Below, piece after piece: positions 56,770-64,000 of a DNA stretch of 64,000 nt (within the stretch, counting starts at the first letter, position 1; each line of letters starts with the position of its first letter). Below the pieces are notes generated by a model. The model was given only the letters and a program-made list of their open reading frames with translations, was not told the DNA's origin and did no database searches. Source of the DNA: an uncultured Gemmiger sp. (lineage in GTDB: Bacteria > Bacillota > Clostridia > Oscillospirales > Ruminococcaceae). Location: NCBI GenBank assembly GCA_944382785.1, contig CALWNO010000008.1, positions 851 through 64,850 of the forward strand, written 5' to 3'. Made by a program: the position numbers and the translations under genes.

Positions 56770-56970
56770 TTTTCTTAACTTTGTAATATATTTTGCTATA
56801 TTTTGCTTTTTTCCGCCAAGAGCCATTGAAATGAGCAATATTCGCACGAATACGGTCTTGACCCCCTTTGCAGGCAGCAAAATTGGTGCTATACTTACTC
56901 TGTAAGAAGATGTGGCGCCATGTGTCGCTATAGTGGGCGGCAGAGTGGCGAAAGAATCGGAGGTTACAGT

Positions 56971-57936
56971 ATGGAACTTTTTGAACGCTTTGAAACACAG
57001 CTCAAGGCAAATCCCAAGACCATCGTTTTCACCGAGGGTCCGGACGCCCGTATTCTGAGCGCGGCCAGCCGTCTGCTGGCCGGCAAGGTGCTGAACGTTA
57101 TCCTGCTCGGCAATCCCGAGGAGGTCAAGGCGGCAGCTGCAGCGGGTGGATTTGACATCACTGGTGCCCAGATCATCGACCCTGTTCATTATGAAGGCTT
57201 TGATGAGATGGTTGCCAAGATGGTTGAGCTGCGCAAAGGCAAAATGACCGAGGAGCAGTGTCGCGCCGCTATGGCGAAGGGCAATTACTTCGGCACCATG
57301 CTGGTCAAGATGGGCAAGGCGGACTGCCTGCTGGGCGGCGCCACCTACTCCACCGCCGATACCGTTCGCCCGGCTCTGCAGCTGATCAAGTGCAAGCCCG
57401 GTGTCAAGTCTGTCAGCTCCTGCTTCATTCTGGTCCGTGGGGACGAGATGCTGGCTATGGGCGACTGCGCCATCAACATCGATCCCACTGAGGATGAGAT
57501 CGTGGAGATCACGGTCCAGACTGCCAAGACTGCTTCCGTTTTCGGCATTGATCCCCGCGTGGCGCTGCTGTCCTACTCTTCCAAGGGTTCCGGCAAGGGC
57601 GAAACCGTGGACAAGATGCGCAATGCCACGGCCCGGGTTCAGGCCGATCATCCCGAACTGAAGGTGGACGGTGAACTGCAGTTCGACGCCGCCGTGGCGC
57701 CGGAAGTGGGTCAGCTGAAGGCGAAGGGCAGCCCGGTTGCCGGCTATGCCAACACCTTTATCTTCCCCAACATCAATGCCGGTAACATCGGTTATAAGAT
57801 CGCCCAGCGTCTGGGTGGCTTTGAGGCCTATGGCCCCATCCTGCAGGGCCTGAATGCTCCTATCAACGACCTGTCCCGCGGCTGCAACGCCGAGGAAGTC
57901 TACAAGATGGCGCTGATCACTGCTGCGCTGATCTGA
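56971..57936 (+). CDS. pta: Phosphate acetyltransferase
   Basis: IVFTEG.D.RIL.AA, STADTVRPALQ, GDCAINIDP, ALLSYSSKGS, DGELQFDAA, GNIGYKIAQR, GPILQG, NDLSRGC. Confidence 0.97.
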   Translation: MELFERFETQLKANPKTIVFTEGPDARILSAASRLLAGKVLNVILLGNPEEVKAAAAAGGFDITGAQIIDPVHYEGFDEMVAKMVELRKGKMTEEQCRAAMAKGNYFGTMLVKMGKADCLLGGATYSTADTVRPALQLIKCKPGVKSVSSCFILVRGDEMLAMGDCAINIDPTEDEIVEITVQTAKTASVFGIDPRVALLSYSSKGSGKGETVDKMRNATARVQADHPELKVDGELQFDAAVAPEVGQLKAKGSPVAGYANTFIFPNINAGNIGYKIAQRLGGFEAYGPILQGLNAPINDLSRGCNAEEVYKMALITAALI

Positions 57937-57960
57937 AAGCGTTTTTCTACATAACCAAAA

Positions 57961-57998
57961 TGTCCCGCACCGGTTTTGTACGGTGCGGGACACTTTTT
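57961..57998 (+). terminator. Terminator after pta
   Basis: TGTCCCGCACCG-gttttgta-CGGTGCGGGACA then CTTTTT. Confidence 0.85.
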
Positions 57999-58015
57999 AT
58001 GGCGCCGAATAGGCA

Positions 58016-58275
58016 TGATAAAATCCCCCAGTTCAACTGGGGGTCAATAAAATTACTTCAGTAAATGGAATAGGTTCCGGCGTTAGCCGGAACCTAAAGT
58101 GAAGGAATATGGTTTTGAATAGTGTACAGATTGCTTGATATAGCCCCGTATAAGGGGCTTGCAGTGCAAAAGGTGTGATTGAAAAATAGTTCAATGCCCT
58201 CTTTAGAGGGCTACCACAGGAGATAGGCCCTTATAGGGCCTGTTCAAACCACCCGTTCAACGGGTGGTTTTGATT
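58016..58275 (+). mobile_element. Non-autonomous IS200-family-derived palindromic element (MITE/PATE-like), no transposase
   Basis: Seven hairpins; right end GCCCTTATAGGGC-N4-TCAAACCACC...GGTGGTTTTGATT matches the reverse complement of the IS200 end at 63630-63678. Confidence 0.75.
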
Positions 58276-58289
58276 CCTCAGGGATTATC

Positions 58290-58331
58290 AAAACAGCGGC
58301 CGGTGTTTGCGTTAACCGGCCGCTGTTTTTT
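58290..58331 (-). terminator. Terminator after luxS (bidirectional form)
   Basis: AAAACAGCGGCCGGT...ACCGGCCGCTGTTTT 15-bp stem. Confidence 0.85.
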
Positions 58332-58345
58332 GCTCTCAGAACAGA

Positions 58346-58804
58346 TTATAGCTTGTAACGGAGATGATCGGCATCCAGCTTCTGCAGAACACCCAGCATA
58401 GTCCGGCACTCCTTGCGGGCACCGTCCGGGTCCATCAGGCGATAGTTGCCGCATTCGGTTTCACTGGCACCGGGGATAGGACCGTCGTAGTCTGCCATCC
58501 AGGCAAAGGCCTCGGTGGTCAGTTGAAGAGCTTCGCCGTCGGTCATGCCCTGGGTCAACAGATAAAAACCAGTCAGGCATCCCATAGGCCCTACATACAC
58601 CACATGGTCACTCCAGCGGCTGTTGCGGGCATAGGTGGCAAACAGATGTTCAATGGTATGTGCGACAGCGGGGGAGAGGTAATCTCCGTGATTCGGCCGC
58701 TTCATCCGCACATCCCAGGTACGGACTTCCCCGTCCTGACGGGAAAGATACATGCCGGGCATCAGGGTCGTGTGGTCAACGCAAAAGCTGGCAATGCGTT
58801 CCAT
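58346..58804 (-). CDS. luxS: S-ribosylhomocysteine lyase
   Basis: IASFCVDHT, HTIEHLFAT, GPMGCLTGFYL, IPGASETECGNY. Confidence 0.97.
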   Translation of the reverse strand: MERIASFCVDHTTLMPGMYLSRQDGEVRTWDVRMKRPNHGDYLSPAVAHTIEHLFATYARNSRWSDHVVYVGPMGCLTGFYLLTQGMTDGEALQLTTEAFAWMADYDGPIPGASETECGNYRLMDPDGARKECRTMLGVLQKLDADHLRYKL

Positions 58805-62869: not shown

Positions 62870-63631
62870 ATGCAGGTACGTTATTACAAGGAATACAGTC
62901 ATTGCCTCGGGCGTGATATGGAGTTCAAGGTCTACGGCCACACCGGTCGCCCGATCATGATCTTCCCCTGCCAGTGCGGGCGCTTTTATGACTGGGAGGA
63001 CCGGGGCATGTGCAACATTGCCGCGCCCTGGATTGACGCGGGCAAGCTGCAGATCATCTGTGCCGACAGCATTGACGGGGAAAGCTGGGACAATCCCGGT
63101 CCCTGCCGCCCCCGGATTGAACAGCAGGAGCGTTGGTACCATTATATCTGTGACGAACTGGTTCCCCGCATCCTGGAAATCAACCGGGAAAACGGTCCGG
63201 ACCATACCGGCCGTATCCTGACCGGCGGCGCCAGCATGGGCGCGGCCCATGCTGTCAACTTCTACCTGCGCCGCCCGGATCTGTTCAACGGTACCATCGC
63301 CCTCAGCGGCATCTATTCGTCCCGCATGTTCTTCGGCGATTATATGGATGATCTGGTGTATGCCAACAGCCCCTGCGATTATATGCGCAATTTCCCGGCC
63401 CAGCATCCGTATTATGAGCTGTACGCCAAGGCGGACAAGTTCATCATGTGCTGCGGCCAGGGTGCCTGGGAGGATGAACTTCTGGCCTCTACCCGGGAAC
63501 TGCGGGATATCCTGGAAAGCAAGGGCATCCATCCCATCGTGGACATCTGGGGAATGGATGTTTCCCATGACTGGCCCTGGTGGAAAAAGCAGTGGCCGTA
63601 CTTCCTGGATATGATCCTGGGCCGTCCGTAA
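62870..63631 (+). CDS. Putative esterase (alpha/beta hydrolase, PF00756-like)
   Basis: LGRDMEFKVYGH.GRP, GASMGA nucleophile motif, CCGQGAWE, HDWPWWKKQ. Confidence 0.88.
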   Translation: MQVRYYKEYSHCLGRDMEFKVYGHTGRPIMIFPCQCGRFYDWEDRGMCNIAAPWIDAGKLQIICADSIDGESWDNPGPCRPRIEQQERWYHYICDELVPRILEINRENGPDHTGRILTGGASMGAAHAVNFYLRRPDLFNGTIALSGIYSSRMFFGDYMDDLVYANSPCDYMRNFPAQHPYYELYAKADKFIMCCGQGAWEDELLASTRELRDILESKGIHPIVDIWGMDVSHDWPWWKKQWPYFLDMILGRP

Positions 63632-64000
63632 TCAAAACCACCGGCTAAGCCGGTGGTTTGAGTAAGCCCTATAAGGGCATCGTACTAGCAAAGCCCCTTG
63701 AGGGGCCACGAATGGGTCTGCCAACTGCATTCCTTTCTCGTGGCAGGCCCCTCAAGGGGCCTCTTTGTTATGCCTTGGTATTCTTGCCACCCGTAAACGG
63801 GTCAACAAATTCTTTGAGGCTCATCTGGTCTGCTATCTGGTCTTGTTGCAGTTGGTTTTTGATATATTCCTCAATGCGCTTTTTGTTTTTGCCTACTGTA
63901 TCTACAAAATACCCTCTTGCCCAGAAATGCCTGTTTCCATACTTGTACTTCAAATTTGCGTGCCTGTCGAAAATCATCAGACTGCTTTTCCCTTTTAAGT
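63630..64000 (-). mobile_element. IS200/IS605-family (IS200 group) insertion sequence, truncated by the window edge
   Basis: tnpA C-terminus plus a downstream end region carrying four hairpins. Confidence 0.92.
63768..64000 (-). CDS. tnpA: IS200-family Y1 (HUH) transposase, C-terminal part
   Basis: Frame open to the window edge: LKGKSSLMIFDRHANLKYKYGNRHFWARGYFVDTVG..IEEYIKNQ (catalytic Tyr in EEYI). Confidence 0.95.
   Translation of the reverse strand, partial: LKGKSSLMIFDRHANLKYKYGNRHFWARGYFVDTVGKNKKRIEEYIKNQLQQDQIADQMSLKEFVDPFTGGKNTKA

What the first reader, a model, noticed from the sequence alone, without database searches (positions are those of the whole stretch)
58016..58275. Transposase-less seven-hairpin element sharing its end with the IS200 5.4 kb away
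Seen: between the pta and luxS terminators lie seven hairpins: CCCCCA-gttcaac-TGGGGG (58025-58043), TAGGTTCCGGC-gtta-GCCGGAACCTA (58071-58096), AGCCCC-gtataa-GGGGCT (58142-58159), ATTGAA/TTCAAT (58178-58195), GCCCTC-ttta-GAGGGC (58196-58211), AGGCCC-ttata-GGGCCT (58225-58241) and AAACCACCC-gttcaac-GGGTGGTTT (58246-58270). The two outer hairpins share the apex GTTCAAC, and TGAT flanks both ends. The right end (GCCCTTATAGGGC-N4-TCAAACCACC..GGTGGTTTTGATT) matches the reverse complement of the IS200 end at 63630-63678, apart from the hairpin apex. Established: Y1 transposases recognise subterminal hairpins, make no target duplication and can mobilise non-autonomous derivatives in trans. Inference: a MITE/PATE-like family, related to but not a simple deletion product of the neighbouring IS, possibly acting as REP-like or sRNA elements.
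Basis: partly seen in the sequence, partly recalled or inferred. Interest (0 to 1): 0.7.

Follow-up and report, generated by a model that had tools for sequence, protein, structure and literature searches.

The report
Transposase-less IS200 mini-element behind a terminator
The hairpin-rich stretch between pta and luxS is a real 275-base mobile insertion, a gene-less miniature of an IS200-type insertion sequence that must borrow a transposase made elsewhere. It is a new example of a known kind, and it and its relatives almost always sit just behind transcription terminators.

Summary
All seven hairpins are present, and the fold is far more stable than shuffled sequence (z = -8.4 on both strands).

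Related contigs with an empty site put the insertion at 58001-58275 (275 nt). That is 15 nt further left than reported. There is no target duplication.

- **Left end:** about 65-73 nt are homologous to the left end of full-length ~750-bp IS200-type elements that carry a 153-157 aa Y1 transposase.
- **Right end:** about 132 nt match those elements' four-hairpin right end; the last 52 nt are identical in one of them.
- **Neighbouring IS (63630-64000):** it is only a cousin. The last 49 nt are 41/49 identical and the hairpin loop differs.
- **Other copies:** the same element, at 85-99% identity, sits at other loci in Faecalibacterium, Ruthenibacterium and other Clostridia assemblies, in chicken-gut metagenomes, and in one isolate's RNA-seq contigs.
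- **Copy number:** depth over the element is about 2-3 times that of its flanks.
- **Insertion site:** 23 of 25 left flanks, for mini-elements and full IS alike, are an intrinsic terminator whose T-tract (usually ending TTAT) abuts the left end.

Verdict: a non-autonomous IS200-group element (MITE/PATE), probably moved in trans by a cognate TnpA. This is a new member of a known kind, of modest interest. Any RNA-level role is untested.

The parts
57961..57992 (+). Intrinsic terminator hairpin of pta. It forms the structured part of the insertion target.
   Evidence: Inverted repeat I1; listed as terminator-like. The empty-site alleles keep it intact.
57993..58000 (+). T-tract CTTTTTAT, whose last bases TTAT (57997-58000) abut the left end. 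This is the presumed cleavage and target sequence, kept in the left flank.
   Evidence: Empty site reads ...ACTTTTTAT|CCTCAGG. At least 9 independent copies of this element have a flank ending in TTAT.
58001..58275 (+). The whole non-autonomous element: 275 nt, 45% GC against 57% for the window. There is no long ORF on the + strand; the longest listed overlapping ORF (53 aa) is on the - strand and was not compared with any database.
   Evidence: Insertion relative to L001, L004, L007 and L009 and to an X8 contig. Copies of 85-99% identity lie at other loci. Translations and GC content.
58001..58073 (+). Left-end module, homologous to the left end of full-length IS200-type elements.
   Evidence: 72-94% identity in aligned blocks to the left ends of L002, L118, L060 and L051.
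58020..58024 (+). A-rich bases (AAAAT) just 5' of the left hairpin foot. Putative guide sequence that pairs with the T-rich target.
   Evidence: Position corresponds to the IS608 guide sequence (papers read). An A-rich tract is conserved here in all subfamilies. The role is inferred.
58025..58043 (+). Left subterminal hairpin CCCCCA-GTTCAAC-TGGGGG, the presumed TnpA binding site. Read on the minus strand it is followed by ATTTTAT and looks like a terminator.
   Evidence: 100% paired in 8 copies. Its loop matches the right-end hairpin loop within each subfamily.
58071..58096 (+). Hairpin 2 (11 bp), at the position where the full IS has its ribosome-binding-site-sequestering hairpin. It is specific to the mini-element.
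   Evidence: Repeat I7. 5 of 11 pairs show compensatory changes in the diverged copies L102 and L041. The IS hairpin is seen.
58074..58143 (+). Central region with no reliable match in any full IS sampled.
   Evidence: blastn of 58045-58145 hits only other copies of the mini-element. Global alignments are fragmentary here.
58142..58275 (+). Right-end module with hairpins at 58142-58159, 58196-58211, 58225-58241 and 58244-58273, plus a weak AT-rich hairpin at 58178-58195.
   Evidence: RNAalifold on 27 IS and mini-element right ends predicts the four hairpins independently; 10 of 27 pairs show compensatory changes. 74-90% identity to IS right ends.
58244..58275 (+). Right subterminal imperfect palindrome TCAAACCACCC-GTTCAAC-GGGTGGTTT(T)GA with one bulged T, then TT and the right boundary. 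Presumed TnpA site; also terminator-like on the plus strand.
   Evidence: pair 139-147 reads CG:13, GC:11, AU:2, UG:1. The boundary follows from the empty sites.
58290..58329 (-). luxS terminator hairpin. It is right-flank context and not part of the element.
   Evidence: Repeat I2. Present unchanged in the empty-site alleles.
63630..63767 (-). Right end (138 nt) of the neighbouring IS200-family element. Same four-hairpin layout, but the terminal hairpin loop is GCTTAGC.
63768..64000 (-). 3' part of that element's tnpA (76 codons plus stop). It runs off the window.
   Evidence: Translation; PF01797 Y1_Tnp, E = 3e-12.

Best explanation
58001-58275 is a non-autonomous derivative of an IS200-group insertion sequence (IS200/IS605 family), of the kind called a MITE or PATE.

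**What it keeps.** It has a left end with a subterminal hairpin and a four-hairpin right end. It has lost the transposase gene.

**How it most likely moves (inferred from the IS608 and ISDra2 mechanism).**
1. A Y1 HUH transposase dimer, made by a full-length relative with the same GTTCAAC-loop hairpins, binds the two outer hairpins on the single-stranded top (+) strand.
2. It cuts after the flank TTAT on the left and after ...TTTTGATT on the right.
3. The element is released as a single-stranded circle and the donor is resealed.
4. The element re-inserts 3' of another T-rich TTNT site, which is read by the A-rich guide bases beside the left hairpin. No duplication is made.

**Where it lands.** In practice these sites are the T-tracts of intrinsic terminators. 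The element therefore sits harmlessly behind genes, here behind pta.

**What is shown:** insertion versus empty alleles, no duplication, homology of both ends to autonomous IS copies, dispersed near-identical copies in several hosts, and the target pattern.

**What is inferred:** trans-mobilisation, the guide-target pairing, and the reason for the terminator preference.
For: - **Empty alleles.** They read ...CTTTTTAT|CCTCAGG... in L001, L004, L007 and L009 and in an X8 contig that skips 275 nt.
- **Left end.** GGCGCCGAATAGGCA...CCCCCAGTTCAACTGGGGG matches the left ends of full IS copies in L002, L051, L060 and L118.
- **Right end.** The last 52 nt are identical to the L002 IS.
- **Parent elements.** They are 748-754 bp (L002, L118, L060; L051 spans 685 bp and appears truncated at the tnpA 5' end) and carry only a 153-157 aa Y1_Tnp gene.
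- **Same unit elsewhere.** L126 97.5%, L128 97.1%, L129 99%, L083 93%, L029, L052 85%. A ~99% copy lies in isolate RNA-seq contigs with a different flank that ends in the same CTTTTTAT.
- **Depth.** Interior depth is 2-3 times the flanks, and the termini are up to about 10 times the flanks (clearest in X1 and X8). Many different flanks appear as loose ends.
- **Other deletion derivatives of the same IS group.** L075, L085, L030, L079, and three identical 253-nt elements in Allofournierella.
- **Left and right hairpin loops co-vary** between subfamilies.
- **Structure is conserved** with compensatory changes.
- **Mechanism and the PATE concept** come from the papers read.
- **Strand.** Cumulative GC skew rises along the + strand, so the element's top strand would be the lagging-strand template, as the family prefers. 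This is weak evidence.
Against: - No excision product or circle junction was seen. Only assembled contigs were available, and they drop rare forms.
- A cognate full-length IS in the same genome is not proven. The only IS in the window has a different hairpin loop. L002 shows a cognate IS in a conspecific strain, but with a rearranged left flank.
- The target is not strict. TTAT dominates, but ATAT, AATT, TTTT and ATTT also occur.
- The central ~70 nt has no identified IS source.
Confidence: 0.85

Rival explanations
1. It is an in-situ wreck: a full IS200 once inserted here and decayed by internal deletion. The 275-nt piece never moved as a unit.
For: A conspecific contig (L002) has a full IS joined to the luxS flank at exactly the same right junction.
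Against: - The same 275-nt unit, with the same internal breakpoints, occurs at 85-99% identity behind unrelated terminators. These lie in several genera, in an AT-rich contig and in an isolate.
- The L002 IS interior differs from the element, apart from the last 52 nt.
- The L002 left flank is not pta.
Confidence: 0.03
2. It is mobile but also serves the host or the IS family at the RNA level. One version is a minus-strand small RNA running through hairpin 2 and ending at the left hairpin plus ATTTTAT, analogous to art200 of Salmonella IS200. Another is a two-way back-up terminator between the convergent pta and luxS genes.
For: - There are terminator-like hairpins on both strands.
- Hairpin 2 is kept through compensatory changes although there is no ribosome-binding site left to hide.
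- G-U/G-T wobble substitutions occur in several stems (+ strand register) in the pair counts.
- The element is present in RNA-derived contigs.
- IS200 precedents for an antisense RNA and a left-end terminator come from the paper read.
Against: - No promoter-like site was found on either strand.
- There is no Rfam match.
- The RNA contigs are unstranded, run on into the neighbouring gene and may be read-through.
- The locus is present or absent among close strains, so it is dispensable.
Confidence: 0.1
3. It is a PATE that carries a guide RNA (omega RNA) used in trans by a TnpB or IscB nuclease, as described for some IS605-type PATEs.
For: The right-end module is long (~132 nt) and highly structured, with covariation. 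PATEs often encode omega RNAs (paper read).
Against: - The parent IS copies are ~750 bp with tnpA only and no tnpB remnant.
- The right end finishes in a hairpin plus T-tract at the boundary, which would stop rather than extend a transcript into a flank-derived guide.
- No Rfam family matches, even at E <= 10.
Confidence: 0.03
4. It is a REP/REPIN-type repeat handled by a domesticated RAYT transposase.
For: Hairpin-rich, extragenic, and placed at the 3' ends of genes.
Against: - It is 275 nt with distinct left and right ends that match an autonomous IS.
- Copy number is low, about 2-3 per genome equivalent.
- It has neither the inverted REP doublet architecture nor a flanked single-copy RAYT.
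Confidence: 0.02

Closest known systems
PATEs/MITEs of the IS200/IS605 family, for example the 271-nt PATE-like element of Halanaerobium hydrogeniformans and the PATE-like elements of Geobacillus stearothermophilus (papers read)
   Same: Short and gene-less. It keeps only the hairpin-bearing left and right ends of an autonomous element, makes no target duplication, and is presumed to be mobilised in trans by TnpA.
   Different: - It derives from a tnpA-only IS200-group element, not from an IS605-type element with tnpB, so it has no tnpB tail or omega RNA.
- It has a family-specific central module with its own conserved hairpin.
- It is spread at 85-99% identity across several gut Clostridia.
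IS200 of Salmonella and IS1541 of Yersinia (paper read)
   Same: The parent elements here are ~750 bp with a single ~150 aa Y1 transposase. They have a left-end hairpin that also looks like a terminator, a second left-end hairpin over the ribosome-binding site, and more than 100 nt of right end after the stop codon.
   Different: - The element itself lacks tnpA.
- Sequences are unrelated at the nucleotide level; there are no Rfam STnc490/art200-type hits.
- The hosts are Clostridia.
IS608 and ISDra2, the mechanistic models (papers read)
   Same: - The left hairpin is set well inside the end (24 nt here) and the right hairpin lies close to the end (2-5 nt).
- A fixed short sequence is kept in the left flank.
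- An A-rich tract sits where the guide bases lie.
- The right palindrome is imperfect, with a bulged T.
   Different: The target is T-rich (TTAT/TTNT) rather than TTAC or TTGAT. None of the biochemistry has been tested for this clade.
REP/REPIN-RAYT systems (abstracts listed)
   Same: Extragenic hairpin DNA that depends on an IS200-like Y1 enzyme and lies at the 3' ends of genes.
   Different: It is much longer, has asymmetric ends identical to those of an autonomous IS, and has a low copy number. It is not a REP doublet.
Bacterial class C group II introns (from my own knowledge, not checked here)
   Same: They home to the DNA just after intrinsic terminator stem-loops.
   Different: They are retroelements with a ribozyme and a reverse transcriptase, which is an unrelated mechanism.

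Membership tests
IS200/IS605-derived non-autonomous element (MITE/PATE) | A discrete insertion with empty-site alleles and no target-site duplication | tested here: met
   The empty site reads CTTTTTAT|CCTCAGG. The filled site is 275 nt longer and nothing is duplicated.
IS200/IS605-derived non-autonomous element (MITE/PATE) | No terminal inverted repeats; subterminal hairpins at both ends, far from the left tip and near the right tip | tested here: met
   The left hairpin starts 24 nt inside the left boundary. The right imperfect palindrome ends 2 nt before the right boundary.
IS200/IS605-derived non-autonomous element (MITE/PATE) | Both ends are homologous to those of an autonomous element encoding a Y1 HUH transposase | tested here: met
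   L002, L051, L060 and L118 are full copies with a 153-157 aa Y1_Tnp gene. Left-end blocks are 72-94% identical, and the right end is 85-94% identical with 52 nt identical at the tip.
IS200/IS605-derived non-autonomous element (MITE/PATE) | No transposase gene of its own | tested here: met
   There is no long ORF on the + strand. tblastn with TnpA finds nothing in tnpA-less relatives, and the central region matches no IS. A 53-aa ORF on the - strand was not compared with any database.
IS200/IS605-derived non-autonomous element (MITE/PATE) | Several copies at unrelated loci | tested here: met
   At least 6 assembled copies plus at least 8 further flanks in metagenome and isolate runs. Depth is 2-3 times the flanks.
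IS200/IS605-derived non-autonomous element (MITE/PATE) | Insertion 3' of a specific tetra- or pentanucleotide that stays in the left flank | tested here: inconclusive
   TTAT is found in at least 9 copies, but ATAT, AATT, TTTT and ATTT also occur. A sister subfamily uses TTGT.
IS200/IS605-derived non-autonomous element (MITE/PATE) | Excision and integration catalysed in trans by TnpA on single-stranded DNA | not testable with these tools
   Only contigs were available and they show no circle junction.
REP/REPIN-RAYT | Short (20-40 nt) palindromes, often as inverted doublets and in high copy number, with a single-copy RAYT gene flanked by them | tested here: not met
   The unit is 275 nt and asymmetric, with about 2-3 copies. 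Its ends equal those of a multi-copy autonomous IS.
Omega-RNA-bearing PATE (TnpB/IscB-dependent) | The right end derives from a tnpB/iscB element and encodes a guide-RNA scaffold that reads out into the flank | tested here: not met
   The parents have tnpA only. There is no Rfam hit. A hairpin plus T-tract sits at the right boundary.
art200/STnc490-type IS200 antisense RNA | A discrete antisense transcript of the left end; sequence and structure match to the described family | tested here: inconclusive
   There is no Rfam match and no promoter-like site. The minus strand does carry two hairpins, the second with a T-tract. Stranded reads were not available.

The most novel reading that the evidence does not exclude
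This IS200 clade and its mini-elements may actively home to intrinsic terminators. On single-stranded DNA, a terminator hairpin followed by a T-tract (...stem-CTTTTTAT|) looks like the element's own right end (stem-TTTTGATT|). The target would then be recognised by structure as well as by four bases.

Separately, the mini-element's private central module could be kept for an RNA-level job. That module includes hairpin 2, which is maintained by compensatory changes, and an 11-nt ATATGGTTTTG motif shared with a second mini-element family but absent from full IS copies. The job might be an antisense regulator of tnpA or a back-up terminator.
Probability: 0.2. Interest if true: 0.55.

Novelty: new member of a known kind. 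Interest (0 to 1): 0.3.

Why it matters
**Practical value.**
- It explains a hairpin-dense intergenic block that could otherwise be mistaken for a regulatory RNA.
- It marks a strain-variable site between pta and luxS.
- It identifies a repeat family that breaks short-read assemblies of gut Clostridia. Many of the 117 end matches sit at contig ends.

**Biological value.**
- It adds a tnpA-only IS200 clade with several independent miniature derivatives that have spread between genera.
- It provides 25 insertion sites with a very consistent pattern, sitting just after a terminator T-tract.
- If that preference is mechanistic rather than the result of selection, it would show how single-strand transposons find safe landing sites. 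It could also suggest how to steer such enzymes.

Tried and rejected
- **Rfam.** The whole window at gathering thresholds, and 57900-58400 at E <= 10, gave only chance-level hits.
- **Promoters.** The sigma-70-type scan of 57800-58500 found none.
- **Plasmids and phages.** BLAST of the element gave only right-end fragments in two plasmids and nothing in phages.
- **Viral contigs.** A scan with an element-specific pattern found no match.
- **JGI metagenome scan.** Only two copies were found.
- **More copies in the window.** Only this one has a left-end motif.
- **Head-to-tail arrays.** None were found in the 129 fetched loci.
- **Source of the central 70 nt.** No full IS copy contains it. Global alignment is fragmentary there, so my reading of it as a remnant of the tnpA start is unproven.
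- **Guide-target rule.** I tried to derive a strict base-for-base rule from the flanks. The pattern, an A-rich guide with a T-rich target, is suggestive but not resolvable.
- **Literature.** Two older IS200/IS1541 papers that might report terminator-adjacent insertion are not held. Full-text searches found no statement on it, so I cannot say whether the terminator preference is already described.
- **Host identity.** I did not name the host species. Run labels say chicken gut, and the relatives are Oscillospiraceae/Ruminococcaceae.

Full report

Yes. The seven hairpins are at the coordinates given. They show up in the inverted-repeat scan and in the minimum-free-energy folds of both strands as single-stranded DNA. 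The folds give -61 and -58 kcal/mol against about -28 for dinucleotide shuffles; z = -8.4 and none of 200 shuffles folds as well.

The block lies between pta (56920-57936, PF01515) with its terminator (57961-57992) and luxS (58346-58804 on the minus strand, PF02664) with its terminator (58290-58329).

The two right-end motifs occur only here and at 63630-63678 in the 64 kb, where chance predicts about none. Beyond 63771, the minus strand encodes the C-terminal 76 residues of a Y1 (IS200-type) transposase.

**2. True boundaries.**

Contigs encoding the identical LuxS protein include four with no element: L001, L004, L007 and L009. They read ...GGGACACTTTTTAT|CCTCAGGGATTATC.... A contig in metagenome run X8 likewise skips 57999-58275.

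The insertion is therefore 58001-58275, which is 275 nt with one base of ambiguity. It made no target duplication. The left TGAT is internal and is not conserved in relatives.

**3. What it derives from.**

L002, a conspecific contig 98.7% identical over 5.5 kb, carries a full IS200-type element next to luxS (Y1_Tnp, 153 aa). Its last 52 nt are identical to the element's. Its left end (GGCGCCGAATAGGCAAGAAAAAACCCCCAGTTCAACTGGGGGT) matches the element's first 45 nt.

A scan of one genome per species for the right-end motif gave at least 117 hits before stopping at its limit. They lie in Oscillospiraceae, Gemmiger, Faecalibacterium, Ruthenibacterium, Allofournierella, Selenomonadaceae, Megasphaera and others. 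Most sit at contig ends, as expected for a repeat.

The best-resolved full copies (L002, L118, L060) are 748-754 bp and hold a single tnpA of 153-157 aa. L051 spans 685 bp. Against them:
- element positions 1 to about 65-73 align to the IS left end;
- positions from about 144 to 275 align to the IS right end, which begins just after the tnpA stop;
- the middle ~70 nt has no reliable counterpart.

**4. The neighbouring IS is a cousin, not the parent.**

It shares 41 of the last 49 nt and only 13 identical terminal nt. Its terminal hairpin loop is GCTTAGC, not GTTCAAC.

Across subfamilies the left and right hairpin loops change together: GTTCAAC with GTTCAAC, GTTTTAC with GTTTTAC, GCTCTGC or GCTACGC with GCTAAGC. 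This fits one transposase reading both ends, and it suggests separate specificity groups. That last step is inference.

The neighbour's end type has its own miniature. Three identical 253-nt elements in Allofournierella massiliensis carry it.

**5. It moved as a unit.**

The same element is found behind unrelated sequences:

| Copy | Source | Identity |
|---|---|---|
| L126 | Faecalibacterium MAG | 97.5% |
| L128 | AT-rich metagenome contig | 97.1% |
| L129 | metagenome contig, lacks the last 50 nt | 99% |
| L083 and L029 | one Ruthenibacterium MAG | L083 93% |
| L052 | Clostridia MAG | 85% |

L102 and L041 are more diverged relatives.

In chicken-gut DNA runs the interior has 2-3 times the depth of the flanks. 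The termini reach up to about 10 times the flanks, most clearly in runs X1 and X8. Many different flanks hang off both ends.

RNA-seq assemblies of one isolate ('organism C') hold a single ~99% identical copy at yet another locus.

Other independent deletion derivatives of the same IS group exist. L075 still has the first tnpA codons. L085 is about 160 nt, L030 about 143 nt, and L079 is another. Nothing was found in phage records or viral contigs.

**6. Structure is conserved.**

- In eight copies, 92.6% of cells pair and seven pairs show compensatory changes. Five of those are in hairpin 2.
- On 27 right ends of IS and mini-elements, RNAalifold independently predicts four hairpins, with compensatory changes in 10 of 27 pairs. 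The terminal hairpin is an imperfect palindrome with one bulged T.
- Several stems also carry G-U/G-T wobble substitutions in the + strand register. This would fit structure on the top strand, but it is weak evidence.

**7. Where the family lands.**

For 25 left flanks of mini-elements and full IS copies, 21 met a simple terminator test. Two more (L118, L051) are terminators with longer or imperfect stems. That makes 23 of 25 intrinsic terminators whose T-tract ends at the left boundary, 6-14 nt after the stem.

Mean folding energy of the 50 nt on the left is -24.8 kcal/mol, against -12.6 on the right.

For this element the flank ends in TTAT in at least nine copies, often as CTTTTTAT. A sister subfamily uses TTGT.

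An A-rich tract sits just 5' of the left hairpin, where IS608 has its guide bases (papers read). An A-rich guide reading a T-rich target is a reasonable inference.

Whether terminators are chosen by the enzyme or merely tolerated by selection cannot be decided here. The right end itself is a hairpin followed by TTTTGATT, so a terminator resembles it. I found no statement on terminator preference in the papers searchable here.

**8. Mechanism proposed.**

[quoted passage not shown] The TnpA would be supplied in trans by a full-length relative with GTTCAAC-loop hairpins. The rising cumulative GC skew suggests the element's top strand is the lagging-strand template, which is the orientation this family favours. 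This is weak support.

**9. Other roles.**

The right hairpin plus TTTT on the plus strand looks like a terminator. So do the left hairpin plus ATTTTAT, and hairpin 2, on the minus strand. This echoes Salmonella IS200, whose left hairpin is a terminator and whose left end makes an antisense RNA (paper read).

But no promoter-like site and no Rfam family was found. The RNA evidence consists of unstranded contigs that run on into the neighbouring gene. A function beyond selfish spread remains possible but unsupported.

**10. Classification.**

Gene-less IS200/IS605 derivatives (PATEs) are already described (papers read). This is a new member of that kind. It comes from a tnpA-only IS200 clade of gut Clostridia, and it has a private central module and a striking terminator-adjacent distribution. 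Interest is modest.

Noticed in passing
window 63620-63640, compared with L002 1-140: The right end of the neighbouring IS abuts the esterase stop codon directly (GGCCGTCCGT|AATCAAAACC). In the conspecific contig L002 the same gene is instead followed by its own terminator, and then by the left end of yet another IS200-like element (GTTAGCTTAAGCG...CCCCGGCTATGCCGGGG).
   Followed up: partly
L002 5480-6393: A full IS joins the luxS flank at exactly the same nucleotide as the mini-element does. Its left flank, however, is a different terminator and not pta. This suggests recombination between two elements that share the right end, or a rearranged strain. A chimeric assembly is less likely, because the shared stretch (52 nt) is shorter than the assembler's k of 87.
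   Followed up: partly
L019, L096, L122 (Allofournierella massiliensis DSM 100451): Three identical 253-nt gene-less elements, each behind a different terminator, carry the right-end type of the window's neighbouring IS. This is a second mini-element family.
   Followed up: partly
window 58108-58118 and L019: The 11-nt string ATATGGTTTTG is shared by the central parts of the two mini-element families. It was not seen in the full IS left ends examined, and a blastn of the window element's central region matched no full IS.
   Followed up: no
L124 and L011, L066, L067, L073, L074, L091 (Gemmiger formicilis An723): A 298-nt stand-alone contig holds the tnpA 3' end plus the right end. Six further contigs of the same isolate stop about 62-66 nt upstream of the right-end motif. 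This is the signature of a multi-copy IS collapsing in a k=115 assembly.
   Followed up: partly
L129 8052-8276 and the locus edge: One copy lacks its last 50 nt (...GGAGATA|CCGCCAGATG). A separate 54-nt right end lies 3.9 kb away, at the edge of the fetched stretch.
   Followed up: no
L084 5756-5904: Only the last ~70 nt of the right end are present, directly preceded by unrelated sequence that appears to be coding. This element was probably truncated by another insertion.
   Followed up: no
window 58056-58063 and the left ends: A short motif, CTTTAG(T/C)A (CTTCAGTA in the window), lies about 12-18 nt after the left hairpin in all the IS and mini-element subfamilies examined. It could belong to the transposase complex or to the tnpA promoter.
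   Followed up: no
window 58001-58275: The element has 45% GC in a 57% GC window. Near-identical copies occur in both GC-rich and AT-rich hosts, which is consistent with recent horizontal spread.
   Followed up: partly
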